A stretch of 57,616 nt of DNA from contig DATDZZ010000052.1 in assembly GCA_035288565.1 (NCBI GenBank), positions 1-57,616 of the forward strand, given 5' to 3'. The translations under genes and the position numbers were made by a program. The DNA comes from an archaeon (GTDB taxonomy: Archaea > Iainarchaeota > Iainarchaeia > Iainarchaeales > DATDZZ01). The notes beneath the pieces were generated by a model that was given only the letters and a program-made list of their open reading frames with translations, had not been told where the DNA came from and searched no databases. Shown here in pieces: positions 2,619-48,345 of this stretch. The first letter of the stretch is position 1, and each line of letters starts with the position of its first letter.

Positions 2619-2660
2619 AAAATCACCTTAATTTTTAACAGTTAATATCTTTATTTTAAT

Positions 2661-3188
2661 ATGAAATTAAAAAAAATTAATAAATATTACTTGGGAATGG
2701 GTTTTTTTTCCTCTAATAAGTATATTAAAAGTGCAGGTATTAAAAACTTATTAGCCTTTTTAGAGAAAAAAGCTGTTTTCAGCCAGGTTTTTGACTTGAA
2801 TGCAGTAATTTCAGAGAATCAAATTCTTTTAGCTGGTATTCAGACTTTAAGGGTTTTAAATGAAAAGGAATCGAAATCTAAAAATGCTGGAATGGATTTT
2901 TTAATGAAGCTTTTCGCTAAAAAGCAAATAAAGGACATTCCAAAAGAAGCATTCATTGCTGATTCAACTAAGAAACTTGGAGTAATTTTTTGCTGTGAAA
3001 ATGAAAATGACTTGAAGAAAAAATTCAGTGATTTAAGTAAGGAATTCAAGTTAAAAGGAGCATTTTTTTCTCCTGAAAATCTTTTAGAAAAAGTTTTTTT
3101 TTATTTCAATGAATCTGATTTAATTAATTTTAAATTAAATAATGCATTGATTGAGAATTTTGTTTTGGAGAAAATGGCTTTAAATTAA
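2661..3188 (+). CDS. cgi121: KEOPS complex subunit Cgi121-like
   Basis: By-eye alignment to archaeal Cgi121: the segment NAVISENQILLAGIQTL...AGMDFLMKLFAKKQIKD...GVIFCCENEN and the C-terminal VLEKMAL match the pattern of the M. jannaschii protein as I recall it. Confidence 0.55.
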   Translation: MKLKKINKYYLGMGFFSSNKYIKSAGIKNLLAFLEKKAVFSQVFDLNAVISENQILLAGIQTLRVLNEKESKSKNAGMDFLMKLFAKKQIKDIPKEAFIADSTKKLGVIFCCENENDLKKKFSDLSKEFKLKGAFFSPENLLEKVFFYFNESDLINFKLNNALIENFVLEKMALN

Positions 3189-15130: not shown

Positions 15131-15784
15131 TTGAAGTTTTTCATTGATTCAGCGGATGTAAAGGAAATCAGGGAAGCTAGTTCTTGGGGAATTGTTGATG
15201 GAGTAACCACAAATCCTTCTCTTGTAGCTAAAACAGGAAGAGATTTCAAGGAAGTTATTAAGGAAATTGTTTCAATTGTTGATGGTCCAATAAGTGCGGA
15301 AGTTGTTGCAACTGATTTTAACAAAATTGTTGAAGAAGGAAGAAAACTGGCGAAAATTCACGACAATATTGTTGTAAAGGTTCCAATGATTAAGGATGGA
15401 TTGAAGGCAATCAAGGAATTTTCAAACACAGGAATTAAAACTAATTGCACTTTGATTTTCAGTTCAACTCAGGCTTTAATGGCTGCAAAGGCTGGAGCAA
15501 CTTATTTGAGCCCTTTTGTAGGAAGGCTTGATGACATTGGATGCAATGGAATGAAATTAATTCAGGAATGCGTTGCAATGAAGCAGAACTATCCAAATTT
15601 GAAATCTGAAATTCTTGTTGCAAGCATAAGGCATCCATTGCACGTAATTGAGTCTCTTGAAATGGGTGCGGATGTAGCCACTCTTCCGTTTAGTGTAATG
15701 GAGCAGTTAATGAAGCATCCTTTAACTGACAAAGGTTTAAGTAAATTTTTAGAGGATGCAAAGAAAGCGAATATTCAAATTTAA
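15131..15784 (+). CDS. tal: transaldolase / fructose-6-phosphate aldolase (short type)
   Basis: [15 protein letters not shown]...GVTTNPSL and the VKVP Schiff-base Lys region. TTG start after GAGGGG. Confidence 0.92.
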
Positions 15785-15820
15785 TTATTAAAATTTAATG
15801 ACTGTTAATGATTTGATGCA

Positions 15821-16663
15821 ATGAAAAAAGTTGAATCAATTAAAGAGCTGAAAAAAATTTCTTTTGAATTAAGGAAAAAGGTTCTTGAAATGACGTTTGC
15901 TGCCGGGTGCGGCCATCCAGGAGGCCCTCTTGGAGAAGCTGATGTTTTCACTGCATTGTTTTTCAATAAAATGAATTTAAATCCATTAAATCCAAAAGAT
16001 GATTTGAGGGACAGGTTTATTTTAAGCAACGGCCACTGCGCTCCAATTCTTTACGCCTGCCTGGCAAAACAGGGTTTTTTTCCTGAAAAAGAATTAATGA
16101 ATTTAAGAAAAATGGGAAGCTTTCTTGCAGGCCATCCTGAAAGAATTTTATGCAAAGGAATTGAAACCACTACTGGAGCGTTAGGGCAGGGCTTAAGTGT
16201 GGGCAACGGAATGGCTTTAGCTGCCAAACTTGACAAGAAAAAGCATAAAATTTTTGTTCATTTAAGTGACGGAGAAATCCAGGAAGGCCAGTCATGGGAA
16301 GCGGCAATGCTTGCAGGCTTCTATAAATTAAATAATGTAATTGCTTTCATTGATGTTAATGGAATTCAAATTGATGGCTATTCAAAGAATGTAATGGATC
16401 CCGCTCCTGTAGCGGATAAATTTAAGGCATTTAATTGGAATGCAATGGAAATCAATGGAAACAATTTTGAAGAAATATTCAATGCACTGGAAGCAGCATA
16501 TAAAAGCGACAAACCTTTTGCTGTTGTCTATAAATCAGTTTTAGGGAAAGGGGTTTCTTTTATGGAAAATGTTCCTGAGTTTCATGGAAGGGCTTTAACT
16601 AAAGAAGAAATGGAGAAGGCCTTGCCTGAATTAAATAAATCAATTAATGAGTTGAGTAAATGA
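15821..16663 (+). CDS. transketolase, N-terminal (TPP-binding) subunit
   Basis: GHPGGPLG, SNGH, GDGE.QEG motifs. Overlaps the next gene by 4 nt (ATGA). Confidence 0.92.
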   Translation: MKKVESIKELKKISFELRKKVLEMTFAAGCGHPGGPLGEADVFTALFFNKMNLNPLNPKDDLRDRFILSNGHCAPILYACLAKQGFFPEKELMNLRKMGSFLAGHPERILCKGIETTTGALGQGLSVGNGMALAAKLDKKKHKIFVHLSDGEIQEGQSWEAAMLAGFYKLNNVIAFIDVNGIQIDGYSKNVMDPAPVADKFKAFNWNAMEINGNNFEEIFNALEAAYKSDKPFAVVYKSVLGKGVSFMENVPEFHGRALTKEEMEKALPELNKSINELSK

Positions 16664-17622
16664 ATTTTTTAAGGGAAAATTTTAATGAAAGCCAGGCAAC
16701 AAGAAACTCTTACGGAGAAGCTCTTGCAGAGCTTGGAGGAGATGAAAAAATTGTTGTATTGGATGCTGATTTAAGCTGCAGCACTAAAACAGCTTCATTC
16801 AAGAAAAAGTTTCCTGACAGATTTTTTAATGTCGGAGTCGCGGAAATGAATTTAATTGGAACATCAGCAGGCCTGTCCTTGGAGGGAAAGCAGGTTTTTG
16901 CTTCAACTTTTTCTGCTTTCTTAACTGGACTGCCTTACAACACTATCAGGCAAAGCATTTGCATTAATGAAGCGAATGTAAAGCTCTGCGGAACCCATTC
17001 AGGCCTTGGAGTAGGAGAAGACGGCCCAACTCATCAAATGCTTGAAGACATTTCTTTAATGCGCGGCCTGCCTAACATGAAAGTAATTGTTCCTGCAGAT
17101 GACGAGGAAACAAAGCAGGTAATAAAATTTTTATCAAAAGAAAAAGGAGCTTTTTATGTCAGGCTTACAAGACAGAATGTCCCTAAATTGTTTAATGACA
17201 AATATAAATTTGAATTAGGAAAAGCTGCAACTTTAAAGGAAGGAAATGATTTGACTTTAATTGGCTGCGGTTCATTGGTTGCTCCATGCCTGGAAGCAGC
17301 AATTGAATTGGAGAAAGAAGGAATTCACTGCAGGGTTATTAACATGAGCTCAATTAAGCCAATTGATAAGGAAGCAATAATTAAAGCAGCAAAAGAAACC
17401 AAAGCATTAATTACAGCTGAAGACCATCAAATTATTGGAGGGCTTGGCTCAGCAGTAGCTGAAGTGCTTGCAGAAAATCATCCAAAGAAATTGCTTAGAA
17501 TTGGAATGAATGACAGGTTTGGAGAAACTGGAAGCAATAAAGATTTATATAAAAAATTTGGCTTCACTAAAGAAGGAGTAATTGAAAAAGTAAAAGAATT
17601 TTATAAAAATTTAAATGAATGA
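16660..17622 (+). CDS. transketolase, C-terminal (pyrimidine-binding) subunit
   Basis: GVAEMNLIG, GEDGPTHQ motifs. Split tkt is typical of archaea. Confidence 0.92.
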   Translation: MNFLRENFNESQATRNSYGEALAELGGDEKIVVLDADLSCSTKTASFKKKFPDRFFNVGVAEMNLIGTSAGLSLEGKQVFASTFSAFLTGLPYNTIRQSICINEANVKLCGTHSGLGVGEDGPTHQMLEDISLMRGLPNMKVIVPADDEETKQVIKFLSKEKGAFYVRLTRQNVPKLFNDKYKFELGKAATLKEGNDLTLIGCGSLVAPCLEAAIELEKEGIHCRVINMSSIKPIDKEAIIKAAKETKALITAEDHQIIGGLGSAVAEVLAENHPKKLLRIGMNDRFGETGSNKDLYKKFGFTKEGVIEKVKEFYKNLNE

Positions 17623-17670
17623 ATTTAATGAAGTGAACGAATTAAAAAAAAATTAATTAAATGAATTTAG

Positions 17671-18141
17671 GTGAATGAATTGAAGTATTTTCTTGGAGCT
17701 GATCACGGGGGATTTGAATTAAAGGAAAAAATCAAGAAAAAATTATTTGGTAAAGGACTTGAAGTTGAAGATTTGGGAACAGATTCAAATGAAAGTGTTG
17801 ATTACCCTGATTTTGCTGAAAGGGTTGCAAGAAAAGTTGTTTCAGAAAAAGGAAAAGGAATTCTTGTATGCGGAACAGGAATCGGAATGAGCGTTGCAGC
17901 AAACAAAGTTCCCGGAGCAATTGCAACACTTGTGTTTGATGAAAACACTGCAAAGATGAGCAGGAATCACAATAATTCAAACATTTTATGTTTAGGGGCA
18001 AGAACAACTGATTCAGAGAAAGCTCTGCATTTAGTTGATGTCTGGCTTTCAGAGGCCTTTGAAGGCGAAAAAAAAGAAGGTTTAAGGCATAAAAAAAGAG
18101 TTGAAAAGTTTTCTGAAATAGAAAAAAAGTTTTTCAAATAA
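17671..18141 (+). CDS. rpiB: ribose-5-phosphate isomerase B (RpiB/LacAB family)
   Basis: GADHGG...CGTGIGMS...N.NILCLG. GTG start after AGGTGAA. Confidence 0.9.
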   Translation: MNELKYFLGADHGGFELKEKIKKKLFGKGLEVEDLGTDSNESVDYPDFAERVARKVVSEKGKGILVCGTGIGMSVAANKVPGAIATLVFDENTAKMSRNHNNSNILCLGARTTDSEKALHLVDVWLSEAFEGEKKEGLRHKKRVEKFSEIEKKFFK

Positions 18142-20992: not shown

Positions 20993-21187
20993 TCAGCTTT
21001 CATCGTAGTATTCTTCTAATGAATAGTTGTCATACTTTGAAGATTCAGGCTTTAAAACGAATTTGCCGCTTTTGACCTTTAAAATGTACTCTGAATTGCA
21101 TTCAGGGCAGTCAAAGTTGTCGCCTTCTTCGAATTCATTTACATTTATGTCAATTCTTTCCTCGCAGCTTGGGCACTTAACTTTCAT
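20993..21187 (-). CDS. small zinc-ribbon protein with an acidic C-terminal tail (LysW-like architecture)
   Basis: CPSC...17 aa...CPEC, then an extended segment and the tail SLEEYYDES. Layout parallels the amino-group carrier protein LysW (CPxC..CxxC..acidic tail). The start could also be 21196. Confidence 0.6.
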   Translation of the reverse strand: MKVKCPSCEERIDINVNEFEEGDNFDCPECNSEYILKVKSGKFVLKPESSKYDNYSLEEYYDES

Positions 21188-21257
21188 TAAGATCACTTTT
21201 ATTTATCTTAAAGAATTATATTCTAGGAGTAACTTTTTTAATAATATCATTAAGGCA

Positions 21258-23531: not shown

Positions 23532-24362
23532 TCAATATTCTCTGTGGAATTTCATTTCAAGGAATTTGATTATTTCTTCTGCCACATTAATTTTTGGGTG
23601 GGTTTCCTGAAATGCCTTGAATTGCGGAGTTCTGTTTGCTTCCAATACATAAAGCTTTTTTTTGTATAATGCAAGATCAACTCCGGCTATTTCCAGCTTT
23701 GCTGATCTTGCTGCAACTAAAGCAGTTTCTTCATGGCTTTTAGTTAATTTTTCCTTTTTTGCTTTTCCGCCTTTAGAGATATTTTTAATCCAGTTTCTTC
23801 CATGTTTTGAAAACATTCCGAGGACTTTTGCTCCAACGACAAGCACTCTGAATTCTTTTTCAAATTGAATGAATTCCTGTGCAATAAAATCTTTTTTTTT
23901 GTCAATTTTTTTAAGCAGTTCCTCAAGATTTTCCGGCTTTGTTCTGTACACTCCAGCGCCTCTTTTTCCCCCGATTTCTTTTACAACAATTTCTTTTGCA
24001 AAGCTTCCTTTTTTAATTAATTCAATTCCTGCTTTGTTTAAAAAAATTGTTTTAGGGATATTTAATCCTGCCTGCTTGAATTCACTGTAATGATTGAATT
24101 TATTTCCGCCTGATTCGTAGGCAATTTTTTCGTCAACTACATCAATGTTTTTTGAAATAAAGCTTTTTGCAATTGCTCTTCCCTGCACTGCCTTGCCTGC
24201 CAAGGGCCTGAATAAAACAATGTCATAAGATTCTTTTGAATCGAAGTCTGCAATAATTTCTTCAGGCTTTAAAACTGAAACAAAGTGCCCTCTTTTCAAG
24301 GCTTCTTTTTCTAATTGATTTATTTCCCATTGCTGTTCATTTGAAACAATTAAAATATTCAT
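23532..24362 (-). CDS. RimK/LysX-family ATP-grasp ligase (paralogue A1)
   Basis: VVKEIGGKRGAGV (Gly-rich loop), IAQEFI, NWIKNISKGGKA, VDLAL...YVLEANRTPQ (E-x-N Mg site). Confidence 0.85.
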   Translation of the reverse strand: MNILIVSNEQQWEINQLEKEALKRGHFVSVLKPEEIIADFDSKESYDIVLFRPLAGKAVQGRAIAKSFISKNIDVVDEKIAYESGGNKFNHYSEFKQAGLNIPKTIFLNKAGIELIKKGSFAKEIVVKEIGGKRGAGVYRTKPENLEELLKKIDKKKDFIAQEFIQFEKEFRVLVVGAKVLGMFSKHGRNWIKNISKGGKAKKEKLTKSHEETALVAARSAKLEIAGVDLALYKKKLYVLEANRTPQFKAFQETHPKINVAEEIIKFLEMKFHREY

Positions 24363-24366
24363 TTAA

Positions 24367-25239
24367 TCACTTTTTCTTCAATGCTTTTTTATACATTGTT
24401 TCCATTGCTTCTCTTGCAAACCTGCTTCCAAAATATTTTATTATGAATCCAGGAGCAAAGTTTATTTCAATTATTACTGGCCCTTTATCTGATTTAATGA
24501 AATCAACTGCGCATATATCTAATCCAAGCAGCTTAGCTGCATTAATTGCAATCTGTCTTTCCTTGTCAGTTACTTGCATTATTTTTGCCTGGCCTCCTCT
24601 GGAAACATTTGCCCTCCAGTCTCCTTTAGCTGCTTTTCTTTCCACTCCAATTGTTTTTGACCCAAAAACGTAAACTCTTTTGTCCGTTCCGTCATTTGGA
24701 ATAAATTTTTGTATTGTGACAAATTCCTTGAATACTTTCAATGTGTCGAGAACCGGCTTGAATTCTTTTTCTGACTGAGAAAGCATCACTCCTTTTCCTC
24801 CAAATCCTGCAACGAGCTTCACAACTAAAGGAAAATTAATTTTGCTTGAAATGGTTAAAGCAGTTTCAGGAGTAATACTCAAACCTGTTTCTGGAACAGG
24901 GAGATTTAATTCGCTTAAAACTTTAACTGCATAGTATTTATGGTTGGCAATTTGAAATCCCTGCACTGAATTAGGCGTGTAAACATTCGAGTTTTCCAGT
25001 AAATCAAGTATTATCTGCCCTAAAACAAAATCATTGCCGAAAAACCTTGCATAGCAGACATCGAATTCAGTTAAATCCATATTTTTGAACAAAATTTTTG
25101 TTTTTCCTGCCTCGCAATGGATTCTTATTTTTTCAATTGGGACAAATAAAACCGTGTCAAAGTATTTTTTCGCTGCTTCCAGAATCCTTTTTCTTGATTC
25201 CTTTGTTGACTTTGCCCCTGCAATCATTACAAACTTCAT
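24367..25239 (-). CDS. RimK/LysX-family ATP-grasp ligase (paralogue A2, most canonical)
   Basis: VVKLVAGFGGKGV, DWRANVSRGGQA (compare RimK FRSNLHRGG and LysX HWITNTARGGQAE), VDFIKSDKGPVIIEINFAPG. Confidence 0.88.
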   Translation of the reverse strand: MKFVMIAGAKSTKESRKRILEAAKKYFDTVLFVPIEKIRIHCEAGKTKILFKNMDLTEFDVCYARFFGNDFVLGQIILDLLENSNVYTPNSVQGFQIANHKYYAVKVLSELNLPVPETGLSITPETALTISSKINFPLVVKLVAGFGGKGVMLSQSEKEFKPVLDTLKVFKEFVTIQKFIPNDGTDKRVYVFGSKTIGVERKAAKGDWRANVSRGGQAKIMQVTDKERQIAINAAKLLGLDICAVDFIKSDKGPVIIEINFAPGFIIKYFGSRFAREAMETMYKKALKKK

Positions 25240-25243
25240 TTAA

Positions 25244-26077
25244 TCACTGAATTTTTTTTAAGTAAAAATTTGCCACTGCTCTGTATAAGTCTTTTCCTGA
25301 AGCTTTATTGAATAACTCAAAATCGATTAATGTTCTTATTCCAGTCACTTTTTCATTAATCATTTTAACTACTGCTATGTCAAGTCCGAGAACTTTTGCT
25401 GCGCTTACTGCAATACTTATTTGTTTTTCGCTTAAAATTGTTGAGGAGACTTTTTTTTCATGTTCAAATTTTTCAACGTTCCATTTTTTTTGAATTGCAA
25501 AAACTTCTTCTCCAATCACGGCAGCATAAACTAGGTCTCCTTCAATGAAGTCCTGCACAGTTACTGCATCTAACTCTGTTTTGATTCCGTTTGCAATAGC
25601 CATTAAGTTTCTTTTTGATTCAGCGACAAAGCTTTGAGTTTTGCTTGTCTTGACAAATGTTTTGAATATAACTGGAAAATTGAATTCATCTGAAATTGAA
25701 TCCAGTTGAGTTAAATCCTTTGTTATAACTGTTTTAGCCACCTTAATTCCTTTTGAGTTTAAGACAACATACTGGAAAGGAATATTTGAATTAATGTAAA
25801 AAGACTCTGGCTTCATCTGGCAGTAAATGCCTTTCTTCACAAGCTCATCAAGAAATGGTTCAGCGAAATCAACAAAGCTTGCATCAAGCTGCAGGAAGCA
25901 GCCATTAAATTTACTGAAGTCAAGCGACCCAAAAAAAATGCTGGTGTTTTTTCCTTTTGTATGCAGTGCAATATTTCCAATTTTTACATATGGAGCCTTA
26001 ACATTCACTTCCTCAAATGCTTTCTGCAGACGCTCGATTTCCTCTGTTTTTTTTTCTGAAACTAAAACTACTTCCAT
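25244..26077 (-). CDS. divergent ATP-grasp-like protein, probably catalytically degenerate (paralogue A3)
   Basis: Same length and position as its neighbours and keeps TVQDFI. The Gly-rich loop is TFVKTSKTQSF, the R.N..RGG motif is absent (KKWNVEKFEHEKK), and there is no E-x-N. Confidence 0.6.
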   Translation of the reverse strand: MEVVLVSEKKTEEIERLQKAFEEVNVKAPYVKIGNIALHTKGKNTSIFFGSLDFSKFNGCFLQLDASFVDFAEPFLDELVKKGIYCQMKPESFYINSNIPFQYVVLNSKGIKVAKTVITKDLTQLDSISDEFNFPVIFKTFVKTSKTQSFVAESKRNLMAIANGIKTELDAVTVQDFIEGDLVYAAVIGEEVFAIQKKWNVEKFEHEKKVSSTILSEKQISIAVSAAKVLGLDIAVVKMINEKVTGIRTLIDFELFNKASGKDLYRAVANFYLKKIQ

Positions 26078-26088
26078 AAACTGAACCT

Positions 26089-27645
26089 TTAACTGTTTTC
26101 TAATTCTTTTTCAGGATCCCAGATCTTTTTAACTCCCTTTTTTTCTTTCCTCATTTTTTCAAAAACAGGCTCTGAGAGAAGCTCATGAATTGTTGATCTT
26201 TTTCTGAGCAATTTAGTTAAATACCTTTCAAATGTTTTGCTTAAATTCTTGTAAGCTGAAATTTCATTGTATAAAAGCCCTTCTTTTATTCTCCAGTAAG
26301 AAGAAGTTCCTTTTTTTCCGAAAACCAAGTAGCCTCTTGATCTATCATCATGGTAGTCCGCCATTGCTTCTTCCATTAACCTGTAATCAATAAGGAATAC
26401 TCCGCTTGTCTGAGGAGAGGGGTCCATTATAATTAATTCGTCTCCTTCAATCCCAACACATAAAACATAGTGTCCTGATTTAGAAGATTTTTCAGGAAAC
26501 AGAACCGGTTTCTTAAACCACATTATCAGCATTGCTCCTTCCGAAAGCCAGTTCTTTGCTTCTTCCTTTAAATTATAAATTTTTTCAAAATTAATTTTTG
26601 CTCCAATGACATTTCCTTCTGTGAACTGCTTAACTGCTTCAATTAATTTATTCGGCTTTACTCCTCCCGGCTGTTTTGTTTCGCTTAAATTTCCAAGAAT
26701 TTCTTGAGTTGCTTTGTCAAATCCATAAAAGTTCAGCATCATTGCCGCGCTTGCGGGGCCGCAGTAGCTTCTGAGCTGAGTGACATAGTTTGCCCTGATA
26801 TTTTCAAGCCTTGATAAATCAGTGTTTGCTCTCTGGAAATAAATGTGTTTTGACAGCACTTCCTTGTTCGGAATTAAAATATTTGAGCCTGAGTCAAGCT
26901 TTATTAAAACGCCGTGGCTTGTAATTGAAAGAATTTCTCCTGAAAAATTCCCGATTCTGGTTCTCTGCCCCGCTTTAAACAAATTTTTTTCAATGTAAAT
27001 CCCTAAAAGAAAGTTTGCCATAGGGTCTTTGAAAACATAATAAGTCATTCCGCCCGCAATCAAAACGAACACAACAATTACTGAGGTAATAACTAATTCC
27101 ACGCTTGGAATATTTAAGCCGACAAAATTCAATGAAGAAATCAAAACAATCAGGAACAAGAAAATCTTCAATACAATTGATGAATTTGAGATAAACCTAT
27201 TGGTTAATCCGATGTTGCTTAAATAATTTCCGAATCCAAGCCTAAAAAATAAACCAATAATTAAATCCACAAACAAATTAATGAAAATCAGTCCAAGAAA
27301 CAATATTAAGATTAAACTCAATAAAGGGGGGATTAAGCTTAGGAGGTTTTCTAAAATAATTGTTGCCTGATTTACTCCAACATACCCTAAAGCAAGAACC
27401 GTAAAAGTAACCAGAAAAAACAATTCTAAAAGATTAGTGAAGGCGGTGACTGCGCTTCTGTTGACAAAATTAAATCTGTTATTTATTGCAATAAAAGCAA
27501 GCTTTAAAATTCTTCCAATAAGTATTCCTAAAACTATTGCCAAAACGGCCAAACCTATATTGGTTAAAACTGTTCCTGAAGCAATTGAATCAACCATAAT
27601 AAACAACTTTAATTGAATTACTTTAATTGAATTAATTGAAATCAT
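26089..27645 (-). CDS. fusion protein: MscS-like mechanosensitive channel core + C-terminal papain-like (peptidase C39-like) domain
   Basis: Five or more N-terminal TMs. MscS TM3/beta-domain pattern FKDPMANFLLGIYI...AGQRTRIGNFSGEILSITSHGVLIKLDSGSNILIPNKEVL. Then SYCGPASAAMMLNFYG (Cys), SGHYVLCVG (His) and IIMDPS (Asp). Confidence 0.75.
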   Translation of the reverse strand: MISINSIKVIQLKLFIMVDSIASGTVLTNIGLAVLAIVLGILIGRILKLAFIAINNRFNFVNRSAVTAFTNLLELFFLVTFTVLALGYVGVNQATIILENLLSLIPPLLSLILILFLGLIFINLFVDLIIGLFFRLGFGNYLSNIGLTNRFISNSSIVLKIFLFLIVLISSLNFVGLNIPSVELVITSVIVVFVLIAGGMTYYVFKDPMANFLLGIYIEKNLFKAGQRTRIGNFSGEILSITSHGVLIKLDSGSNILIPNKEVLSKHIYFQRANTDLSRLENIRANYVTQLRSYCGPASAAMMLNFYGFDKATQEILGNLSETKQPGGVKPNKLIEAVKQFTEGNVIGAKINFEKIYNLKEEAKNWLSEGAMLIMWFKKPVLFPEKSSKSGHYVLCVGIEGDELIIMDPSPQTSGVFLIDYRLMEEAMADYHDDRSRGYLVFGKKGTSSYWRIKEGLLYNEISAYKNLSKTFERYLTKLLRKRSTIHELLSEPVFEKMRKEKKGVKKIWDPEKELENS

Positions 27646-27714
27646 TTAAGTTAGTAATAAATATATTTAAAGAAAGCCCTTTTTAAAATCATTTAAAAAA
27701 ATTAAGTGAATTGA

Positions 27715-28530
27715 ATGAAGATATTAATTGTTTCAAATGAAAAGCAGTGGGAAGTTAAGCAGATTAAGAAAGAAGCAGTCAAGAGAAATCACAAAGCCGT
27801 AATGGTTTCACCAAAAAACCTTTCCAGCAAATTTTTGAATAAAAAAGTTGACGCAGTAATTGTCAGGGCAATAAGAGGAAACGGGGAATTAGTAAGAAAA
27901 AAGCTTCAAAAATTGCATTCAAGTTCAGTGAAATTGTTGGATGAATCATTATTGAAAGAAAAACCCAGAAACAAGTACTCAAATTTTTTATTATTTAAAA
28001 AAAATAAATTGTTTCAGCCGAAAACTTTTTTGTTTTCAAAGAAAAGAATTAATTTTTTTGAAAAGCAGTTCAACGAATTTGCTGTAATTAAAAATGTTTC
28101 AGGGAAGAGGGGTGAAGAAGTCTTCAAAGTCAATGTAAATGATTTGAGAAAATTTTCAAAAACACTTTCAAAAAGAAAAAAATATTTGATCCAGGAATTC
28201 GTTCCAATAAAAAAAGAGCTGAGGGTTTTAGTTTTAGGCAAAAAAGTTCTCGGAGTCTATGAAAAAAAATCATTTAACTGGAAAAAAAATATTGCGTTGG
28301 GGGCAGAAGCAAAAAAATTTACTTTAACCAATGAATTAAAGAAATTGTCATTAAGAGCTGCTTTAATTGTTCGAAGAGATTTTCTTGGGCTTGATTTGGC
28401 TTTAACCACTTCAGGGTACTTTATTTTAGAGGCAAACAGAAGCCCTCAATTTAAGGGATTTCAAAAACTTTATCCAAAAATCAATGTTGCGAAGGAATTG
28501 ATTCTTTTTTTGGAAAAACTCAAGGTTTAA
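27715..28530 (+). CDS. RimK/LysX-family ATP-grasp ligase (paralogue A4, closest to A1)
   Basis: MKILIVSNEKQWEVKQIKKEAVKR versus A1 MNILIVSNEQQWEINQLEKEALKR. VIKNVSGKRGEEV, LIQEFV, NWKKNIALGAEA, ILEANRSPQFKGF. Divergently transcribed from the A3-A1 operon. Confidence 0.8.
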   Translation: MKILIVSNEKQWEVKQIKKEAVKRNHKAVMVSPKNLSSKFLNKKVDAVIVRAIRGNGELVRKKLQKLHSSSVKLLDESLLKEKPRNKYSNFLLFKKNKLFQPKTFLFSKKRINFFEKQFNEFAVIKNVSGKRGEEVFKVNVNDLRKFSKTLSKRKKYLIQEFVPIKKELRVLVLGKKVLGVYEKKSFNWKKNIALGAEAKKFTLTNELKKLSLRAALIVRRDFLGLDLALTTSGYFILEANRSPQFKGFQKLYPKINVAKELILFLEKLKV

Positions 28531-28549
28531 ATATATTTTAATTGTTTTT

Positions 28550-29275
28550 TTGTTTATGAAATTTGACAAGCTTCTTGTTACAATTCCTCATTGGAGCAAA
28601 AAAATTCCAAAAGGATATGAAAAAAGGATTCTGGAAAGAAGTGCGATATGGAAGCACATAGACCCCGGTACAGACCAGTTGTTCAATTTGGATAAAGCAA
28701 AGATAATCAAAGCCAAGTATACAAGATTCGTTGTTGATTTGAACAGGAGAAGAAACGATTTCTCTAATAAAGGAGTTTTAATTAAAGTTGCCTGGGACGG
28801 AGAAAAAGTATGGAAAAATTATCCTGATAAACAGGAAATCGAATTATTGCTTCAAACTCATTATGATCCTTTTTTTGAAAGCTTAAAGAAATGGATTGCA
28901 AAACAGAATGGAACAGTTCTTCATGTTGACGGCCATTCAATGAATCCTTTTGGGGGAAGTCATTCAATTGATGTAAGAAAAGAAAGACCGGACATCTGCT
29001 TAATGGACAACCACCAAAGCACGTGCTTGGGAGAATTTTCAAGGGAGCTGAAAGAAGATTTTGAAAAGCTCGGCTACTGGACTGAGATAGGGCTTCCTTA
29101 CAGTGGAAGAAAGTCAGCTATAATAAACAAGCTTTCAGACAAAGAAAAAATTCATTCAATTGGAATTGAAGTAAACAAAAGGCTTTACATGGGGGGAATA
29201 GAAATTCTTTACCCAAAAAAGATTAAGGTAGTCAGAAATCAAATAAATAAAGTTATACTGAAGCACGTCAAATAA
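28550..29275 (+). CDS. N-formylglutamate amidohydrolase (FGase) family hydrolase
   Basis: IPHWS..IP, DPGTD, TRFVVDLNR, LHVDGHSM follow the FGase-family motif order. An ATG at 28556 is the likelier start. Confidence 0.75.
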   Translation: MFMKFDKLLVTIPHWSKKIPKGYEKRILERSAIWKHIDPGTDQLFNLDKAKIIKAKYTRFVVDLNRRRNDFSNKGVLIKVAWDGEKVWKNYPDKQEIELLLQTHYDPFFESLKKWIAKQNGTVLHVDGHSMNPFGGSHSIDVRKERPDICLMDNHQSTCLGEFSRELKEDFEKLGYWTEIGLPYSGRKSAIINKLSDKEKIHSIGIEVNKRLYMGGIEILYPKKIKVVRNQINKVILKHVK

Positions 29276-38750: not shown

Positions 38751-40052
38751 TTAATTTTCAATTATTTGAAATGGGCTTTTTTGAATTAAGTCTTCTGAAG
38801 CAGGCAGAATCAAATAAACTTTATCATTTGCCCTGACTGTTTTCAAAACTTTTAATGCTGCTCTTTTTCCTTTTTCAATTCTTGAAACAAAATTGTTGCT
38901 GACCTGAATTTCTTCAACTTTTTGCCTGAAATAGCCTGTTGTGTTTCCAATAAATGCAATAACTGAATTTACTTCCAGGCCGCGTGTTTCAAAAAGAATT
39001 TCAGCAGCATTAACTTTCTGATAATAATTCAATACTTTTCCTAAATAAATTTTCCTTTCAGTTGCCTTGCTTCCATAAGTTTTGCTCCAGAAATCCAAAG
39101 GCCTTCCCATGTAATAGCCTTCAGTGAATCCCCTGTTGAAAACTTTTTCAAGCCTTGAATAAAGCTCTCTTCTTTTTTCGAGAGTGTAATTGTTTTGCTT
39201 GATTAAATCCAGCGCTTCCCTGTAAGCACTAACAACTTCAAAAACATAATCAGCAGTTCTGCCTCTCCCCTCAATTTTTAATACCTTAATTCCTGCTCCA
39301 ATTAACTGGTCTAAAAAATCAATTGTGCATAAGTCATTAGGGCTTAAAATAAATTCATTATCTATTTTCAATTGCTTCCCTTCATCATCAGTTATAGTGT
39401 AAGGCCTTCGGCAGTTCTGAAGACACACCCCCTTATTTGCGCTTTTATTTGAAGTGAATTCACTCATCTGGCATCTTCCGGAAACTGCAATGCATAAAGC
39501 TCCATGGGCAAAGCACTCAATCTCAATTAAATTTCCTGAAACCCCTAAAATTTTTTCTTTTTCAATTCTTTCAATAATTTTTTGCACTTGCCCTAAATTG
39601 AGTTCTCTCGCCAAAACAATTCTGTCAGAAAACTGAGAAAAAAATTTAACTGAATCAAAATTGCTGATGCTTTTTTGCGTTGAAATATGCACGCTCAACC
39701 CAAGTTCTCTGGCTTTCAAAATAACTGAAAAATCTGAAGCAATTACAGCATCAGCACCGGCATCCTTTATCTGCTTTAAAAGATTTTCCAGCAGCTTTGA
39801 TTCAGAATCATAAACAATTGAATTCAATGCAACATAGCATTTTACATTATTTTCATGGCAGAGCTTTACTGCTTTTGGAAGCTCTTTAACTGAAAAATTT
39901 TTAGCGCTTGCAGTTCTCATGTTAAGAAAAGGAATCCCTAAATAAACTGCATCAGCCTTTGCATCAATCGCTGCATGCAATGAACTGAAGTCCCCTGCAG
40001 GAGCAAGCAATTCAATTGAATCAATCAATCCGCTTAATTCTTTTAACTGCAT
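38751..40052 (-). CDS. peptidase U32 family protein
   Basis: TIM-barrel-like N-terminal part with E.F.HGALC...SGRC and a Cys-rich CLQNCRRPY, typical of U32. Confidence 0.85.
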   Translation of the reverse strand: MQLKELSGLIDSIELLAPAGDFSSLHAAIDAKADAVYLGIPFLNMRTASAKNFSVKELPKAVKLCHENNVKCYVALNSIVYDSESKLLENLLKQIKDAGADAVIASDFSVILKARELGLSVHISTQKSISNFDSVKFFSQFSDRIVLARELNLGQVQKIIERIEKEKILGVSGNLIEIECFAHGALCIAVSGRCQMSEFTSNKSANKGVCLQNCRRPYTITDDEGKQLKIDNEFILSPNDLCTIDFLDQLIGAGIKVLKIEGRGRTADYVFEVVSAYREALDLIKQNNYTLEKRRELYSRLEKVFNRGFTEGYYMGRPLDFWSKTYGSKATERKIYLGKVLNYYQKVNAAEILFETRGLEVNSVIAFIGNTTGYFRQKVEEIQVSNNFVSRIEKGKRAALKVLKTVRANDKVYLILPASEDLIQKSPFQIIEN

Positions 40053-41510: not shown

Positions 41511-41798
41511 ATGAATTTAAAAGATGAGAGAAAAAAAATAAATGAAATTGACAGAAAAATTTTATTTTTGCTTAACCAAAGAATTAATGTTTCCAAAGCA
41601 ATAGCCAAAATAAAGCTGGAAAAAGGTTTGCCTGTTTTCCTGCCGGAAATTGAATCGAAAAAAATCAATGCTTTGAAAAAAGAGAATAAAAAAATTAATT
41701 CCGGCTTTTCAGAAAAAACACTTGAAGCAATTTTTAAAGAAATTTTTTCTGCAGGCAAAAAAATTCAAAAGAATTTAATTAAGGGGGAAGAAAAATGA
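41511..41798 (+). CDS. chorismate mutase (AroQ type)
   Basis: R..I..ID..I..LL..R...S..I...K pattern. 95 aa. Confidence 0.88.
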
Positions 41799-42808
41799 TT
41801 GTAGTGTTAAAGCCTTCAATAACCAAAGAACAGTTAAATCATTTAATTAAATCAATTGAAGATTTGGGTTTCAAAACCCATTACAACAAAGGACAGGAAA
41901 GGTCCATTGTAGGAATCATTGGAGATGAAAGAAACCTTTCAAAGAACAAGCTGGAGGCCTTTGAAGGAGTGGAAAAAGTTTTAACTGTGCTAAAGCCATA
42001 CAAACTGGCTTCAAGAGAATTCCATCCTCAAGATACTGTAATTGAAGTTGACGGAGTAAAGCTCGGAGGAAAAGAAGTTATTGCTCTTGCCGGGCCCTGC
42101 TCTGTTGAATCAGAAGAGCAATTAATGACTATCGCTGAATCAGTTAAAAAAAGCGGTGCAAAAATTCTCAGAGGATCTGTTTACAAGCCAAGAACTTCTC
42201 CTTATGATTTTCAGGGTTTAGGCGATGAAGGGTTGAAATTACTTGCCAAAGCAAAAGAAGAAACAGGGTTGGTTGTTGAAACAGAAGTAATGGATCCAAG
42301 AAAAGTTGAAATAGTTGCCGAGCATGTTGATATTCTCAGAGTAGGGGCAAGAAATTTCCAGAATTATGATTTGCTTAAAGAACTGGGAAAAATAAACAAG
42401 CCAGTAATTTTAAAGAGAGGAATTTCCGGCTACATTAATGAATGGCTTTTGGCTGCAGAATACATTATGAATGAAGGCAATCAACAAGTTATTTTGTGTG
42501 AAAGGGGGATAAGAACTTTTGAAATTGAAACAAGAAATACACTGGATTTGAATGCTGTTCCATTCATTAAAGGAACTTCTCACCTGCCGGTAATTGTTGA
42601 CCCTTCACATGGAACAGGAAAAAGAGAATTAGTTATTCCTATGAGCAAGGCAGCTATTGCAGCTGGAGCAGACGGATTAATTGTTGAAGTGCACAATAAA
42701 CCGGAAGAAGCTTTAAGCGACGGAAAGCAGTCCCTTACATTAAATTTGTTTGAGCAGTTAATGAATGAATGCAGGCCAGTAGCAAAAGCAATTAACAGAA
42801 AAATGTGA
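41795..42808 (+). CDS. aroG: 3-deoxy-7-phosphoheptulonate (DAHP) synthase, type I-beta, with an N-terminal ferredoxin-like regulatory domain
   Basis: Very close by eye to the Thermotoga maritima enzyme as I recall it (MIVVLKP..., [37 protein letters not shown]). Confidence 0.9.
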
Positions 42809-42812
42809 ATAA

Positions 42813-48324: not shown

Positions 48325-48345
48325 AAAAACAGTAAATGAAAAAAC

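What the first reader, a model, noticed from the sequence alone, without database searches (positions are those of the whole stretch)
23532..29275. Island of four RimK/LysX-type ATP-grasp paralogues, an MscS::papain-like peptidase fusion and an FGase-family hydrolase: candidate undescribed amidoligase system
Seen in sequence: a minus-strand operon with 4-11 nt gaps runs MscS::peptidase (26089-27645), then degenerate ATP-grasp A3, then A2, then A1. It is transcribed divergently, across a 69-bp gap, from A4 followed by an FGase-like hydrolase (19-nt gap). A1, A2 and A4 keep the Gly-rich loop, the W..N...GG motif and the E-x-N metal site. A1 and A4 are clear paralogues (about 17 of the first 26 residues identical by eye). 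Established knowledge: RimK adds alpha-Glu tails to ribosomal protein S6. LysX/ArgX ligate an amino acid to the C-terminal Glu of the carrier LysW. CofF and MptN glutamylate cofactors. FGase-family enzymes hydrolyse N-acyl-glutamate-type amides. Comparative genomics has repeatedly tied such ligases to peptidases in predicted peptide-tagging or small-peptide synthesis systems. Inference: none of the usual partners (lysYZJK, F420 or methanopterin genes, rpsF) is present in this window. The combination of several ligases, a thiol peptidase anchored to a channel and an amide hydrolase suggests a write/trim/erase module. It could act on an oligo-amino-acid product or on a protein tail, possibly coupled to membrane tension or solute release.
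Basis: partly seen in the sequence, partly recalled or inferred. Interest (0 to 1): 0.8.

Follow-up and report, generated by a model that had tools for sequence, protein, structure and literature searches.

The report
Archaeal RimK ligases with channel-tethered protease
This gene cluster from a tiny symbiotic (DPANN) archaeon pairs RimK-type amino-acid ligases with a thiol protease fused to a mechanosensitive-channel-like membrane protein; it looks like an undescribed archaeal version of the bacterial RimK/RimB system that adds and trims glutamate tails, but what it acts on is unknown.

Summary
All six ORFs, their gaps and their domains are as described.

The six genes are not one conserved unit. 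The conserved unit is three genes: the MscS-like::papain-like fusion (FUS), then A3, then A2. FUS sits directly upstream of A3 (followed by A2 wherever the contig continues) in 49 loci from Iainarchaeota, Micrarchaeota and Nanohaloarchaea.

- **A2** is a complete RimK-like ligase.
- **A3** is a catalytically dead paralogue in every lineage.
- **FUS** keeps its Gln/Cys/His/Asp catalytic set in all 54 orthologues. Its peptidase domain is found essentially only in this fusion: 58 clusters among 1.84 billion representatives. Its nearest solved relative is the Nostoc phytochelatin-synthase-like enzyme, not a classical C39 peptidase.
- **A1/A4 ligases, FGase, M20, M29, AstE/AspA and GCS2** are interchangeable accessories.

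In locus L071 the A3-A2 pair lies next to a RimB-type retropepsin instead of FUS. This points to a RimK/RimB-like write-and-trim system.

The substrate and any coupling to the channel part are untested. I found no publication describing it. I rate it a new variant of a known kind.

The parts
26089..27645 (-). FUS: 518-aa fusion protein. Five TM helices and an MscS-type pore-helix/beta-domain are followed by a cytoplasmic papain-fold (C39_2 / phytochelatin-synthase-like) thiol peptidase and a conserved helical C-terminal extension.
   Evidence: Pfam hits. MscS alignment. AF2 model with pLDDT 80. Foldseek matches Alr0975 at 1e-7 and MscS/YnaI at about 1e-6. Q290, C295, H392 and D408 are invariant in 54 orthologues.
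26980..27645 (-). FUS residues 1-222: membrane domain with 5 predicted TM helices, N-terminus outside and C-terminus inside. The last helix corresponds to MscS TM3.
   Evidence: Hydropathy analysis. Helices in the AF2 model. phmmer alignment to MscS residues 29-97 and 96-176. Foldseek aligns YnaI (a 5-TM MscS relative) over 283-287 columns.
26833..26964 (-). FUS residues 228-271: MscS beta-domain. The MscS alpha/beta domain and C-terminal barrel are absent.
   Evidence: PF00924 scores 21.9 bits against a cut-off of 20.2. PF21088 and PF21082 are not matched. Strands 228-271 appear in the model.
26311..26817 (-). FUS residues 277-445: papain-fold catalytic domain with Q290 (oxyanion), C295, H392, D408 and an invariant RGY at 437-439.
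26092..26310 (-). FUS residues 446-518: family-specific conserved C-terminal extension (W451-R452, Y465, L468, W509-x-P511), followed by a variable charged tail.
   Evidence: Alignment. Invariance. No significant match in the PDB.
25244..26077 (-). A3: conserved pseudo-ATP-grasp, a catalytically dead RimK paralogue. It is always the gene after FUS.
   Evidence: Pfam RimK hit of only 8.5e-9. No PDB hit. The equivalents of the Gly loop, R189, N213, D248, E260 and N262 are lost in all 29 orthologues. Adjacency shown.
24367..25239 (-). A2: complete RimK-family ligase with a pre-ATP-grasp domain. It is the presumed catalytic partner of A3.
   Evidence: TIGR00768 scores 164 bits, above the 143.4 cut-off. 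Best PDB hits are Pseudomonas and E. coli RimK at 1e-34 and 4e-33. All catalytic residues are kept in 33-34 of 35 orthologues.
23532..24362 (-). A1: accessory ATP-grasp ligase of a DPANN-restricted clade, with catalytic residues intact.
   Evidence: An A1/A4-clade ligase follows A2 in 13 other loci.
27646..27714 (.). AT-rich divergent intergenic region with TATA-like boxes about 20-30 nt upstream of each start codon. It probably holds two archaeal promoters.
   Evidence: Sequence read. This is inference only. The sigma-70 scan does not apply to archaea.
27715..28530 (+). A4: accessory ATP-grasp ligase, a paralogue of A1 (41% identity), transcribed divergently from FUS.
   Evidence: A divergent A1/A4-type ligase sits upstream of FUS in 9 other loci.
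28550..29275 (+). FGase-family amidohydrolase. It is not a HutG equivalog.
   Evidence: PF05013 3.8e-35. TIGR02017 scores 44.9 bits against a cut-off of 278. The motifs PH.S, D.NR, DGHS and E.N are invariant in 6 orthologues. In 6 other loci the FGase gene directly follows A2.
20993..21196 (-). Possible, unproven partner: a 67-aa zinc-ribbon protein with an acidic, aromatic C-terminal tail and weak similarity to LysW.
   Evidence: NF041070 LysW/ArgW domain at E 2e-5, 24 bits against a cut-off of 75. Orthologues lie 4-8 kb from FUS in 5 other loci, always inside the TyrRS-membrane protein-Zn ribbon-CysRS synteny block, and the C-terminal residue is not conserved.

Best explanation
The cluster is an archaeal, membrane-tethered counterpart of the bacterial RimK/RimB system.

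**Proposed mechanism.**
- A2, an intact RimK-family alpha-L-amino-acid (most likely glutamate) ligase, works together with its catalytically dead paralogue A3. Together they add acidic residues in an ATP-dependent way, either to the C-terminus of an unidentified acceptor or as free oligo/poly-alpha-glutamate.
- The cytoplasmic papain-fold domain of FUS plays the RimB role: it cleaves or remodels that product. It is held at the membrane on an MscS-derived scaffold, probably a heptamer.
- The variable genes add further writers (A1, A4, and GCS2 in relatives) and exo-acting erasers or recyclers. In this window the eraser is the FGase-type amidohydrolase. In relatives it is an ArgE/DapE-type M20, M29 or AstE/AspA enzyme.

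**Shown:** gene content, conserved gene order, which catalytic sites are intact or dead, the fold of FUS, and the swap between FUS and a RimB-type protease.

**Inferred:** glutamate as the substrate, an A2/A3 hetero-oligomer, FUS acting on the ligase product, and the roles of the accessory enzymes.

**Speculative (about 0.2):** that the channel-like part links the system to glutamate or osmotic homeostasis.
For: **Conserved core.** FUS>A3 adjacency, with A2 next wherever the contig continues, is found in 49 non-duplicate loci from three DPANN lineages, with FUS identity down to 32%. The gaps are tiny or the genes overlap.

**A search that did not use FUS.** A metagenome scan seeded only on A3 found FUS directly upstream in all 12 new loci that have upstream DNA, plus the window's own contig and AR10.

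**The one exception.** In L071 the orthologous dead-A3/active-A2 pair lies beside a divergent RimB-type retropepsin (PF05618, 7.5e-13, DTGA motif) instead of FUS, in the same TyrRS-RibL...IMPDH synteny.

**A2 resembles RimK.** Its best solved relatives are RimK at 1e-34. It passes the TIGR00768 cut-off and keeps all catalytic residues.

**A3 is dead but conserved** in 29 orthologues.

**FUS is an active enzyme.** Its catalytic Gln/Cys/His/Asp set is invariant in 54 orthologues. The domain is predicted to be cytoplasmic.

**Accessory enzymes.** The accessory hydrolases FGase, ArgE/DapE-type M20 and AstE/AspA-DoeB-like are N-acyl-amino-acid or terminal-residue amidohydrolases; M29 is an aminopeptidase family. 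FGase directly follows A2 in 6 loci that have no extra ligase.

**Literature.**
- RimB removes Glu from polyglutamylated RpsF and stimulates poly-alpha-Glu synthesis by RimK. The authors link poly-Glu synthesis to the glutamate pool and osmolality (PMC11957791).
- Pseudomonas RloABC combines a protease, a 7-TM protein fused to a papain-fold (inactive transglutaminase) domain and an ATP-grasp enzyme. It is needed for tolerance of hypo-osmotic stress (PMC11957051).
- Locus L003 places the module beside an ordinary MscS gene and sucrose-phosphate synthase and phosphatase genes.
Against: - No acceptor has been identified. Archaea lack bS6, the only proven RimK target.
- FUS occurs without adjacent ligases in about 20 Woesearchaeota-type loci. 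In one of them (L058) a separate RimB-RimK pair lies 9.4 kb away. FUS may therefore have a function that does not depend on the ligases.
- The replacement of FUS by a RimB-type protease rests on a single locus.
- The nearest solved relative of the peptidase acts on a gamma-glutamyl tripeptide, not on alpha-poly-Glu.
- A2 scores far below the S6-ligase equivalog cut-off (128 vs 331 bits), so its amino-acid specificity is not established.
- There is no evidence that the MscS-like part conducts solutes or senses tension. The pore-lining Gly/Ala pattern of MscS TM3a is poorly kept.
Confidence: 0.45

Rival explanations
1. The module makes and processes a small gamma-glutamyl peptide, a glutathione- or phytochelatin-like compound. 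GCS2 and the ATP-grasp ligases would build the peptide. The FUS domain would act as a phytochelatin-synthase-like dipeptidyl transpeptidase or hydrolase on it. The metallohydrolases would recycle the fragments.
For: - The best structural match of the FUS domain is Nostoc Alr0975, solved as its gamma-Glu-Cys acyl-enzyme (E 1e-7, TM 0.64). It is also the best profile match (3.4e-5, against 0.05 for ComA C39).
- One orthologue carries a precomputed PF05023 (phytochelatin synthase) hit.
- GCS2-family ligases are present in 9 related loci.
- The ligases give secondary hits to the GSH-S_ATP family.
Against: - GCS2 is absent from this window and from most loci.
- A2 is much closer to RimK (1e-34) than to glutathione synthetase (1e-17).
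- The residues of the phytochelatin-synthase second-substrate site, Lys206 and Tyr207, are not conserved (Q-T in FUS), and Arg173 is Lys (alignment; residues from PMC3855540).
- PF05023 does not match the window protein.
- The swap with a RimB-type protease in L071 fits alpha-Glu chemistry better.
Confidence: 0.12
2. FUS is functionally independent of the ligases. It would be a DPANN-specific channel or membrane scaffold whose peptidase cage processes some other substrate, such as imported or membrane-proximal peptides. The ligase genes would sit next to it for regulatory or historical reasons.
For: - FUS stands alone in about 20 Woesearchaeota and Nanohalarchaeota loci with its catalytic residues fully conserved.
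- In Woesearchaeota loci it often lies beside large secreted proteins.
- L058 has its own RimB-RimK pair elsewhere in the locus.
Against: - The strict FUS>A3>A2 order, with gaps of 4-11 nt or overlaps, holds in 49 loci across lineages that have diverged to 32% identity.
- The A3-seeded search recovers FUS nearly every time.
- Conservation of that kind usually reflects co-translation or a physical complex.
Confidence: 0.12
3. The module is a LysW-type carrier-protein system. A1/A4 (LysX-like) would load an amino acid onto the acidic tail of the zinc-ribbon protein, and an M20/FGase-type hydrolase (LysK-like) would release it.
For: - A4's best solved relatives are ArgX and LysX (1e-13 to 2e-9).
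- The zinc-ribbon protein at 20993 has a weak LysW-domain hit and an acidic tail. Orthologues lie 4-8 kb from FUS in 5 other loci.
- The M20 accessories belong to the ArgE/DapE family. That LysK also belongs to this family is my own recollection, not tested here.
Against: - LysX and LysW scores are far below their cut-offs (79-90 vs 275.6 bits; 24 vs 75 bits).
- None of the window ORFs I profiled is a LysZ, LysY or LysJ homologue (only about 18 of the 72 ORFs were profiled).
- The zinc-ribbon gene is separated from the ligases by housekeeping genes and is absent from most loci.
- Its C-terminal residue varies (S, D, E, A), unlike the terminal Glu of LysW (from my own recollection; not tested here).
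- The core A2/A3/FUS genes are left unexplained.
Confidence: 0.07
4. The module makes a RiPP or graspetide-like product. The ATP-grasp enzymes would cross-link a ribosomal precursor peptide, the C39-like domain would remove its leader, and the channel would export it.
For: - FUS has C39-family Pfam hits.
- C39 peptidases and transporters are the genes most commonly associated with graspetide ligases (PMC8939145).
- A conserved small zinc-ribbon ORF follows the A1-type ligase in 9 related loci.
Against: - No conserved small ORF belongs to the core, and none lies next to the cluster in this window.
- Graspetide-maturase models score 15-22 bits against cut-offs of 350-425.
- The ligases are RimK-like and have a pre-ATP-grasp domain.
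- An MscS-type pore is not known to export peptides.
Confidence: 0.04

Closest known systems
Bacterial RimK/RimB(/RimA) ribosomal protein S6 polyglutamylation system (Pseudomonas, E. coli)
   Same: - A RimK-family ATP-grasp ligase is encoded next to a dedicated protease.
- A2's best solved relatives are RimK.
- A RimB-type retropepsin replaces FUS beside the orthologous A3-A2 pair in L071.
- In the bacterial system the protease both trims Glu tails and modulates poly-alpha-Glu synthesis (PMC11957791).
   Different: - The protease here has a papain fold, not a retropepsin fold.
- It is fused to an MscS-like membrane domain.
- The ligase comes as an active plus dead paralogue pair.
- The known target bS6 does not exist in archaea.
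- A2 is below the S6-ligase equivalog cut-off.
- Extra ligases and metallo-amidohydrolases are attached.
Pseudomonas RloABC (retropepsin RloA, 7-TM::inactive-transglutaminase RloB, ATP-grasp RloC)
   Same: A RimK-related ATP-grasp enzyme is combined with a polytopic membrane protein that carries a papain-fold domain, plus a peptidase activity. The bacterial system is genetically tied to tolerance of hypo-osmotic stress (PMC11957051).
   Different: - In RloB the papain-fold domain is catalytically inactive and periplasmic, and a separate secreted aspartic protease supplies the activity.
- Here the papain-fold domain is active and predicted to be cytoplasmic, and the membrane part is MscS-derived rather than 7-TM.
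- The two systems share no sequence relationship beyond the ATP-grasp fold.
Nostoc Alr0975 / phytochelatin synthase (gamma-glutamylcysteine dipeptidyl transpeptidase)
   Same: It is the nearest solved fold and profile match of the FUS catalytic domain. Both have Gln/Cys/His/Asp catalytic residues and an aligned R-G-[YF] motif. Alr0975 acts on a non-ribosomal Glu-containing peptide made by ATP-dependent ligases.
   Different: - The second-substrate residues Lys206 and Tyr207 are not conserved, and Arg173 is Lys.
- Pfam PF05023 is not matched.
- FUS has its own C-terminal extension and a membrane domain.
- The substrate is unknown.
MscS-family mechanosensitive channels (MscS, YnaI)
   Same: FUS has five TM helices like YnaI, a TM3-type helix and the beta-domain.
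   Different: The cytoplasmic alpha/beta domain and C-terminal barrel that complete the MscS vestibule are replaced by a peptidase domain. The Gly/Ala pattern of the pore helix is poorly conserved. Channel activity is untested.
LysX/ArgX-LysW-LysK amino-group carrier protein pathway
   Same: A1 and A4 are about as close to LysX/ArgX as to RimK. ArgE/DapE-type M20 hydrolases occur in related loci. A weakly LysW-like zinc-ribbon protein lies nearby.
   Different: None of the ORFs I profiled is a kinase, reductase or aminotransferase partner of that pathway. All scores are far below the equivalog cut-offs. The zinc-ribbon gene is not in the operon.

Membership tests
RimK family alpha-L-glutamate ligases (TIGR00768 / PF08443) | Profile score above the curated cut-off (TIGR00768: 143.4 bits) | tested here: met
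   A2 scores 164.2 bits, so it is met. A1 (138.5) and A4 (132.1) fall just below. A3 (43) fails. All four pass the PF08443 cut-off of 21 bits.
RimK family alpha-L-glutamate ligases (TIGR00768 / PF08443) | Intact ATP-grasp catalytic residues: K141, the Gly loop, R189, N213 and the Mg ligands D248/E260/N262 (E. coli RimK numbering) | tested here: met
   Met for A2, A1 and A4. Not met for A3, which has K, G/S/D and R/K/D at the three Mg-ligand positions in 29 orthologues.
30S ribosomal protein S6--L-glutamate ligase (RimK proper, NF007764) | Equivalog score of at least 331 bits, and presence of the substrate bS6 | tested here: not met
   A2 scores 128.5 bits, A1 57.6 and A4 40.5. That archaea lack bS6 is established knowledge. 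No rpsF gene was seen among the window ORFs I profiled.
LysX / ArgX (TIGR02144) | Equivalog score of at least 275.6 bits, and neighbouring lysW/Z/Y/J/K genes | tested here: not met
   Scores are 79-108 bits. None of the window ORFs I profiled is a LysZ, LysY or LysJ homologue.
MptN (NF040720) and CofF (TIGR04443) | Equivalog scores of at least 350 and 300 bits respectively | tested here: not met
   MptN scores are 37-129 bits. CofF scores are 62-76 bits.
Graspetide / microviridin ATP-grasp maturases (TIGR04185, TIGR04187) | Equivalog or subfamily score of at least 350-425 bits, and an adjacent precursor peptide | tested here: not met
   Scores are 15-22 bits. No conserved precursor ORF lies in the core.
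RimK/RimB-type system | A RimK-family ligase encoded next to, and working with, a dedicated protease that trims its product | tested here: inconclusive
   The gene adjacency is met in 49 loci. A RimB-type protease (PF05618) substitutes for FUS in L071. The biochemical link cannot be tested with these tools.
MscS mechanosensitive channel family | TM3 pore helix plus beta-domain (PF00924) | tested here: met
   PF00924 scores 21.9 bits against a cut-off of 20.2, which is marginal. Supported by phmmer to MscS residues 96-176 and by Foldseek to MscS/YnaI at E about 1e-6.
MscS mechanosensitive channel family | Cytoplasmic alpha/beta domain (PF21082) completing the vestibule, and tension-gated conductance | tested here: not met
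   PF21082 is not matched and that region is occupied by the peptidase domain. Conductance cannot be tested here.
Peptidase C39-like (PF13529 / PF03412) | Profile score above the cut-off, and a Gln/Cys/His/Asp catalytic set | tested here: met
   PF13529 scores 42.3 bits (cut-off 24) and PF03412 scores 25.8 bits (cut-off 22). Q290, C295, H392 and D408 are invariant in 54 sequences.
Bacteriocin-processing C39 peptidase (PCAT type) | N-terminal domain of an ABC exporter that cleaves double-glycine leader peptides | tested here: not met
   FUS has no ABC transporter domain. The profile match to ComA is weak (0.05). Foldseek to 6mpz is 2e-4, weaker than the match to Alr0975.
Phytochelatin synthase (PF05023, MEROPS C83) | PF05023 match, the catalytic triad, and the second-substrate site Arg173/Lys206/Tyr207 (NsPCS numbering, PMC3855540) | tested here: not met
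   The triad and the oxyanion Gln are present. PF05023 is not matched. K379 aligns with Arg173, and Q-T replaces Lys206-Tyr207 (alignment). The fold similarity is real.
FGase family (PF05013) / HutG N-formylglutamate deformylase (TIGR02017) | PF05013 score above its cut-off; HutG equivalog score of at least 278.75 bits | tested here: met
   PF05013 scores 122.4 bits against a cut-off of 28.9, so it is a member of the family. HutG scores 44.9 bits, so it is not a HutG equivalog. Polar motifs are invariant in 6 orthologues.
LysW/ArgW carrier protein (NF041070) | Domain score of at least 75 bits, and a conserved C-terminal acidic motif ending in Glu | tested here: not met
   The zinc-ribbon protein at 20993 scores 24.4 bits. 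The orthologues end in S, D, E, A, E and E.

The most novel reading that the evidence does not exclude
The MscS-derived scaffold forms a heptamer whose cytoplasmic cage is built from seven active thiol-peptidase domains and docks the A2/A3 synthetase. Polymerisation of glutamate (the main counter-ion of K+) into osmotically inert oligo-glutamate, and its depolymerisation, would then be switched by membrane tension. This would be an enzymatic osmotic buffer. It would let metabolically dependent DPANN cells survive osmotic shifts without losing amino acids they cannot make.
Probability: 0.1. Interest if true: 0.9.

Novelty: new variant of a known kind. Interest (0 to 1): 0.62.

Why it matters
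**RimK in archaea.** RimK-type ligases are widespread in archaea, but no function is known for those outside the LysX, ArgX, MptN and CofF families, and the only proven RimK target (bS6) is bacterial. This module gives a defined and conserved handle on that question: an active/dead ligase pair with a dedicated protease, in organisms with very small genomes that keep few dispensable genes.

**A new architecture.** A mechanosensitive-channel scaffold with an active papain-fold enzyme in place of the vestibule domain is not described in the literature I could search. In 1.84 billion representative proteins its peptidase domain occurs in only 58 clusters at E <= 1e-10, nearly all with the fusion architecture.

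**What it would show if confirmed.** If the peptidase trims the ligase product, RimK/protease write-and-trim pairs would be an ancient, cross-domain design with interchangeable proteases. Whether membrane tension or glutamate homeostasis controls such peptide tagging would become directly testable.

Tried and rejected
**Searches that gave nothing useful.**
- The Iyer et al. 2009 amidoligase survey (PMC3268129) is not held, so I could not check whether it mentions this arrangement.
- Full-text searches for RimK + FGase, mechanosensitive + C39 + ATP-grasp, RimK + DPANN, and phytochelatin synthase + mechanosensitive channel + archaea found nothing relevant.
- The homology search with the 67-aa zinc-ribbon protein returned only itself. 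That was a wasted search.
- phmmer of FGase and of A3 against the PDB found nothing.
- The conserved P-loop protein P344 of the Nanohaloarchaea loci has no PDB or NCBIfam match and only weak MobB/CbiA hits.
- The A3 alignment that included the Nanohaloarchaea sequences was too divergent to seed a metagenome scan. A narrower alignment worked.
- The sigma-70 promoter scan was no better than shuffled sequence and does not apply to archaea.

**Readings I considered and rejected.**
- *Horizontally acquired island:* the composition matches the rest of the window and the synteny is conserved within the lineage.
- *Membership of CofF, MptN, LysX or S6-RimK:* rejected on the equivalog cut-offs.
- *Graspetide/RiPP cluster:* see the rival explanations.
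- *eS6 as the target in Nanohaloarchaea:* the module lies just downstream of the adjacent rps6e and aIF2-gamma genes there. I take the acidic eS6 tails to reflect the generally acidic proteins of halophiles, and they are not uniform.
- *The FUS C-terminal tail as acceptor:* its terminal residue is not conserved.

Full report
**1. Observation**

The ORF list reproduces the six genes exactly:

| Gene | Coordinates | Strand | Length |
|---|---|---|---|
| A1 | 23532-24362 | - | 276 aa |
| A2 | 24367-25239 | - | 290 aa |
| A3 | 25244-26077 | - | 277 aa |
| FUS (fusion) | 26089-27645 | - | 518 aa |
| A4 | 27715-28530 | + | 271 aa |
| FGase | 28550-29275 | + | 241 aa |

The gaps are 4, 4 and 11 nt within the minus-strand operon, 69 nt across the divergent starts, and 19 nt between A4 and FGase.

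Pfam confirms every domain call.
- RimK ATP-grasp is found in all four ligases, but only weakly in A3 (8.5e-9).
- FUS has Peptidase_C39_2 (1.4e-10) and the MscS beta-domain (1.9e-4, just over the cut-off).
- FGase matches PF05013 at 3.8e-35 over the whole profile.

A1 and A4 are 41% identical.

There are three minor corrections. A4 has GA rather than GG in the N...GG motif. The FUS start could be M17 rather than M1. The cluster has the same GC content as the rest of the window, so it is not an island by composition.

**2. Which organism**

TyrRS, IMPDH and CysRS in the window are 42-67% identical to those in Iainarchaeota (Diapherotrites) MAG loci. Those loci share the same gene order: IMPDH ... 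module ... RibL-TyrRS ... CysRS. The window therefore comes from a DPANN archaeon of that lineage, and the module is inherited vertically there.

**3. What is conserved**

The fusion protein has 37 close homologues, all from DPANN archaea. A scan of one genome per species found 55 loci. ORF-based and HMM-based labelling sorts them into three classes.

| Class | Lineages | Arrangement |
|---|---|---|
| I | Iainarchaeota, Micrarchaeota | FUS>A3>A2 in every locus with enough DNA, plus variable extras |
| II | Nanohaloarchaea, Asbonarchaeum | FUS>A3>A2, followed by a convergent uncharacterised P-loop protein (P344), sometimes with an AstE/AspA-type deacylase |
| III | Woesearchaeota-type MAGs and two Nanohalarchaeota | FUS alone |

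The class I extras are:
- an A1-type ligase after A2 in 13 other loci, followed by a small zinc-ribbon protein in 9 of them;
- an FGase directly after A2 (6 loci);
- an ArgE/DapE-type M20 hydrolase;
- an M29 peptidase plus a GCS2 ligase upstream;
- a divergent A1/A4-type ligase upstream (9 loci).

A metagenome scan seeded only on A3 returned 17 loci. FUS lies directly upstream of A3 in all 12 new loci that have upstream sequence, and also in the window's own contig and AR10.

In total, 49 non-duplicate loci show FUS directly followed by A3, and by A2 wherever the contig continues. The exact six-gene set of the window occurs only on the window's own contig (L060).

**4. The parts**

*A2.* A2 is a complete RimK-family enzyme. 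It passes the TIGR00768 cut-off. Its best solved relatives are Pseudomonas and E. coli RimK (1e-34 and 4e-33). All catalytic residues are kept in its orthologues.

*A3.* A3 is a conserved pseudo-enzyme. In 29 orthologues from both classes, the three Mg ligands, R189, N213 and the Gly loop are all replaced.

*A1 and A4.* These form a small DPANN-only clade. They have intact catalytic residues and are roughly equidistant from RimK and from LysX/ArgX.

*No known equivalog.* None of the ligases reaches the equivalog cut-offs for S6-RimK, LysX, MptN or CofF.

*FUS membrane part.* FUS has five TM helices with the N-terminus outside and the C-terminus inside. An MscS TM3/beta-domain follows.

*FUS peptidase part.* The AF2 model (pLDDT 80) places a papain-fold domain at residues 277-445 and a helical extension after it.
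- Foldseek's top hit is the Nostoc phytochelatin-synthase-like enzyme Alr0975, solved as its glutathione acyl-enzyme (E 1e-7, TM 0.64 over 200 columns). MscS/YnaI follow, then the pseudomurein endoisopeptidase PeiR, and only then a PCAT C39 domain.
- A sequence profile of the domain agrees: Alr0975 at 3.4e-5 against ComA C39 at 0.05.
- The phytochelatin-synthase second-substrate residues Lys206 and Tyr207 are not conserved (PMC3855540; alignment). It is therefore not a true phytochelatin synthase.
- Q290, C295, H392, D408, R437-G-Y and W509 are invariant in all 54 full-length orthologues, including the stand-alone ones.
- Against 1.84 billion representative proteins, the 247-aa C-terminal region finds only 58 clusters at E <= 1e-10. 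Nearly all are about 500 aa long with the domain at about 255-500. This domain therefore exists essentially only in this fusion.

*FGase.* It is a full-length PF05013 member but not a HutG equivalog. Its polar motifs are invariant in six orthologues.

**5. The key comparative result**

Locus L071 has the same lineage synteny (TyrRS, RibL, IMPDH) and an orthologous pair of dead A3 and active A2. It has no FUS. In its place, divergently transcribed from A3, is a RimB-type retropepsin (PF05618 7.5e-13, DTGA motif) together with a GNAT acetyltransferase. A polytopic membrane protein follows A2.

RimB is the dedicated protease partner of bacterial RimK. It removes Glu from polyglutamylated RpsF and stimulates poly-alpha-Glu synthesis (PMC11957791).

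This non-orthologous replacement is the strongest argument that the FUS peptidase plays the RimB role for the A2/A3 ligase. It rests on one locus.

A Woesearchaeota locus (L058) has FUS and, 9.4 kb away, a separate RimB-RimK pair. RimK/RimB systems therefore exist in DPANN archaea, and FUS may not always depend on adjacent ligases.

**6. Mechanism proposed**

- A2, with A3 as a non-catalytic partner, adds acidic residues (most likely alpha-linked Glu) to an unknown acceptor or makes free oligo-glutamate.
- The membrane-tethered cytoplasmic thiol peptidase of FUS cleaves or remodels the product.
- A1, A4 and GCS2 are additional writers.
- FGase, the M20 enzymes and the AstE/AspA-type enzymes are N-acyl-amino-acid or terminal-residue amidohydrolases, and M29 is an aminopeptidase family. 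I read all four as erasers or recyclers.
- FGase follows A2 directly in loci that have no extra ligase. This suggests it acts on the A2 product.

A link to osmotic or glutamate homeostasis is suggested only by four indirect points:
- the MscS ancestry of the scaffold;
- the RloABC analogue in Pseudomonas, which is needed for tolerance of hypo-osmotic stress (PMC11957051);
- the discussion in PMC11957791;
- one locus (L003) where the module sits beside an MscS gene and sucrose-phosphate synthase and phosphatase genes.

I treat that link as speculative.

**7. Rivals**

- *Gamma-glutamyl peptide (glutathione or phytochelatin-like) metabolism.* It fits the fold match and the GCS2 neighbours. It does not fit the RimK-likeness of A2, the missing phytochelatin-synthase residues, or the rarity of GCS2.
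- *Independent role for FUS.* It fits the stand-alone class III loci. It does not fit the strict operon order elsewhere.
- *LysW-type carrier system.* It fits the similarity of A4 to ArgX, the M20 enzymes and the weakly LysW-like zinc-ribbon protein. It fails on cut-offs, on missing pathway genes, on loose linkage and on a variable C-terminus.
- *RiPP/graspetide cluster.* It fails on model scores and on the absence of a precursor.

**8. Novelty and verdict**

I found no paper describing this architecture or module. The 2009 amidoligase survey could not be read.

The logic of the system, a RimK-type ligase with a dedicated protease, is known from bacteria. Four things are new:
- the MscS::papain-fold fusion;
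- the obligatory active/dead ligase pair;
- the set of interchangeable deacylases and ligases;
- the archaeal (DPANN) setting, which lacks the known substrate.

I class it as a new variant of a known kind and score interest at 0.62.

Noticed in passing
window 20993-21196 (-); orthologues at L005:17663-17893, L007:6674-6883, L016:16669-16890, L025:6896-7099, L026:9204-9419: A 67-aa CxxC...CxxC zinc-ribbon protein with an acidic, aromatic C-terminal tail (…LEEYYDES). It has a weak LysW-domain hit (24 bits against a cut-off of 75). It recurs 4-8 kb from FUS in five other Iainarchaeota loci, always within the TyrRS-membrane protein-Zn ribbon-CysRS block. These loci tend to lack the other small zinc-ribbon gene that follows A1.
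   Followed up: partly
L001:14130-14378, L002:14103-14366, L011:5317-5571, L017:4319-4594, L019:14138-14407, L022:13780-14061 (also L023, L067, L070): A conserved 82-93-aa zinc-ribbon protein (F.FCP.CGS.NLKP.IYG.GK..AALSPQM.C..CGFYGF) directly follows the A1-type ligase in 9 loci. It has no Pfam or NCBIfam family and is absent from this window by tblastn. It could be an acceptor or adaptor protein.
   Followed up: partly
L071:2162-5793: A related archaeon has the dead-A3/active-A2 pair without FUS. Instead it has a divergent RimB-type retropepsin (2623-3042, -) and a GNAT acetyltransferase (2162-2626, -). A 288-aa polytopic membrane protein with a Cys-rich tail follows A2 (4927-5793, +).
   Followed up: yes
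L058:9794-10380: A Woesearchaeota contig with stand-alone FUS also carries a RimB-type protease gene. It is immediately followed by the start of a RimK-like gene, 9.4 kb downstream, cut off by the contig end.
   Followed up: partly
L036:12990-14024 (-) and orthologues in L028-L033, L035, L052, L053, L057: A conserved protein of about 340 aa with a P-loop (RMDAGKTT) converges on A2 in every Nanohaloarchaea-type locus. It gives only weak MobB/CbiA-like hits and has no PDB or NCBIfam match. In L029 and L031 an AstE/AspA (DoeB-like) deacylase follows it.
   Followed up: partly
L028-L036, L052, L057 (for example L036:8092-9666): In Nanohaloarchaea the module lies directly downstream of the adjacent rps6e and aIF2-gamma genes. 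Some eS6 proteins end in …LLEEE. The echo of RimK's bacterial target 'S6' is probably a coincidence, because eS6 and bS6 are unrelated.
   Followed up: partly
L003:190-3439: In one Iainarchaeota genome, an ordinary MscS channel gene and sucrose-phosphate phosphatase and synthase genes (compatible-solute synthesis) lie immediately upstream of the divergent A4-type ligase and FUS.
   Followed up: no
L034:4342-7080, L041:5723-9286 and other Woesearchaeota loci: Stand-alone FUS genes are often followed by very large, Asn-rich secreted proteins. These end in a conserved G-I-T-G-[FL]-L-[AS]-G-P-P motif plus a TM anchor, which may be a sorting signal. A conserved 476-aa membrane protein with no Pfam match follows.
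   Followed up: no
window 9447-10742 (-), 15131-18141 (+), 41795-49173 (+), 38751-40052 (-): For a DPANN archaeon, the window encodes a notable amount of metabolism. A RuBisCO large subunit and a U32 peptidase are confirmed by Pfam. From reading the ORF translations only, I also recognise likely transaldolase, transketolase halves, RpiB and Rpe genes and an apparent shikimate-pathway operon; these were not profiled.
   Followed up: no
window 27597-27645: Orthologues of FUS align only from about residue 17 of the window ORF (MVDS…). The true start may therefore be M17. A TATA-like element about 20 nt upstream of the M1 ATG argues the other way.
   Followed up: partly
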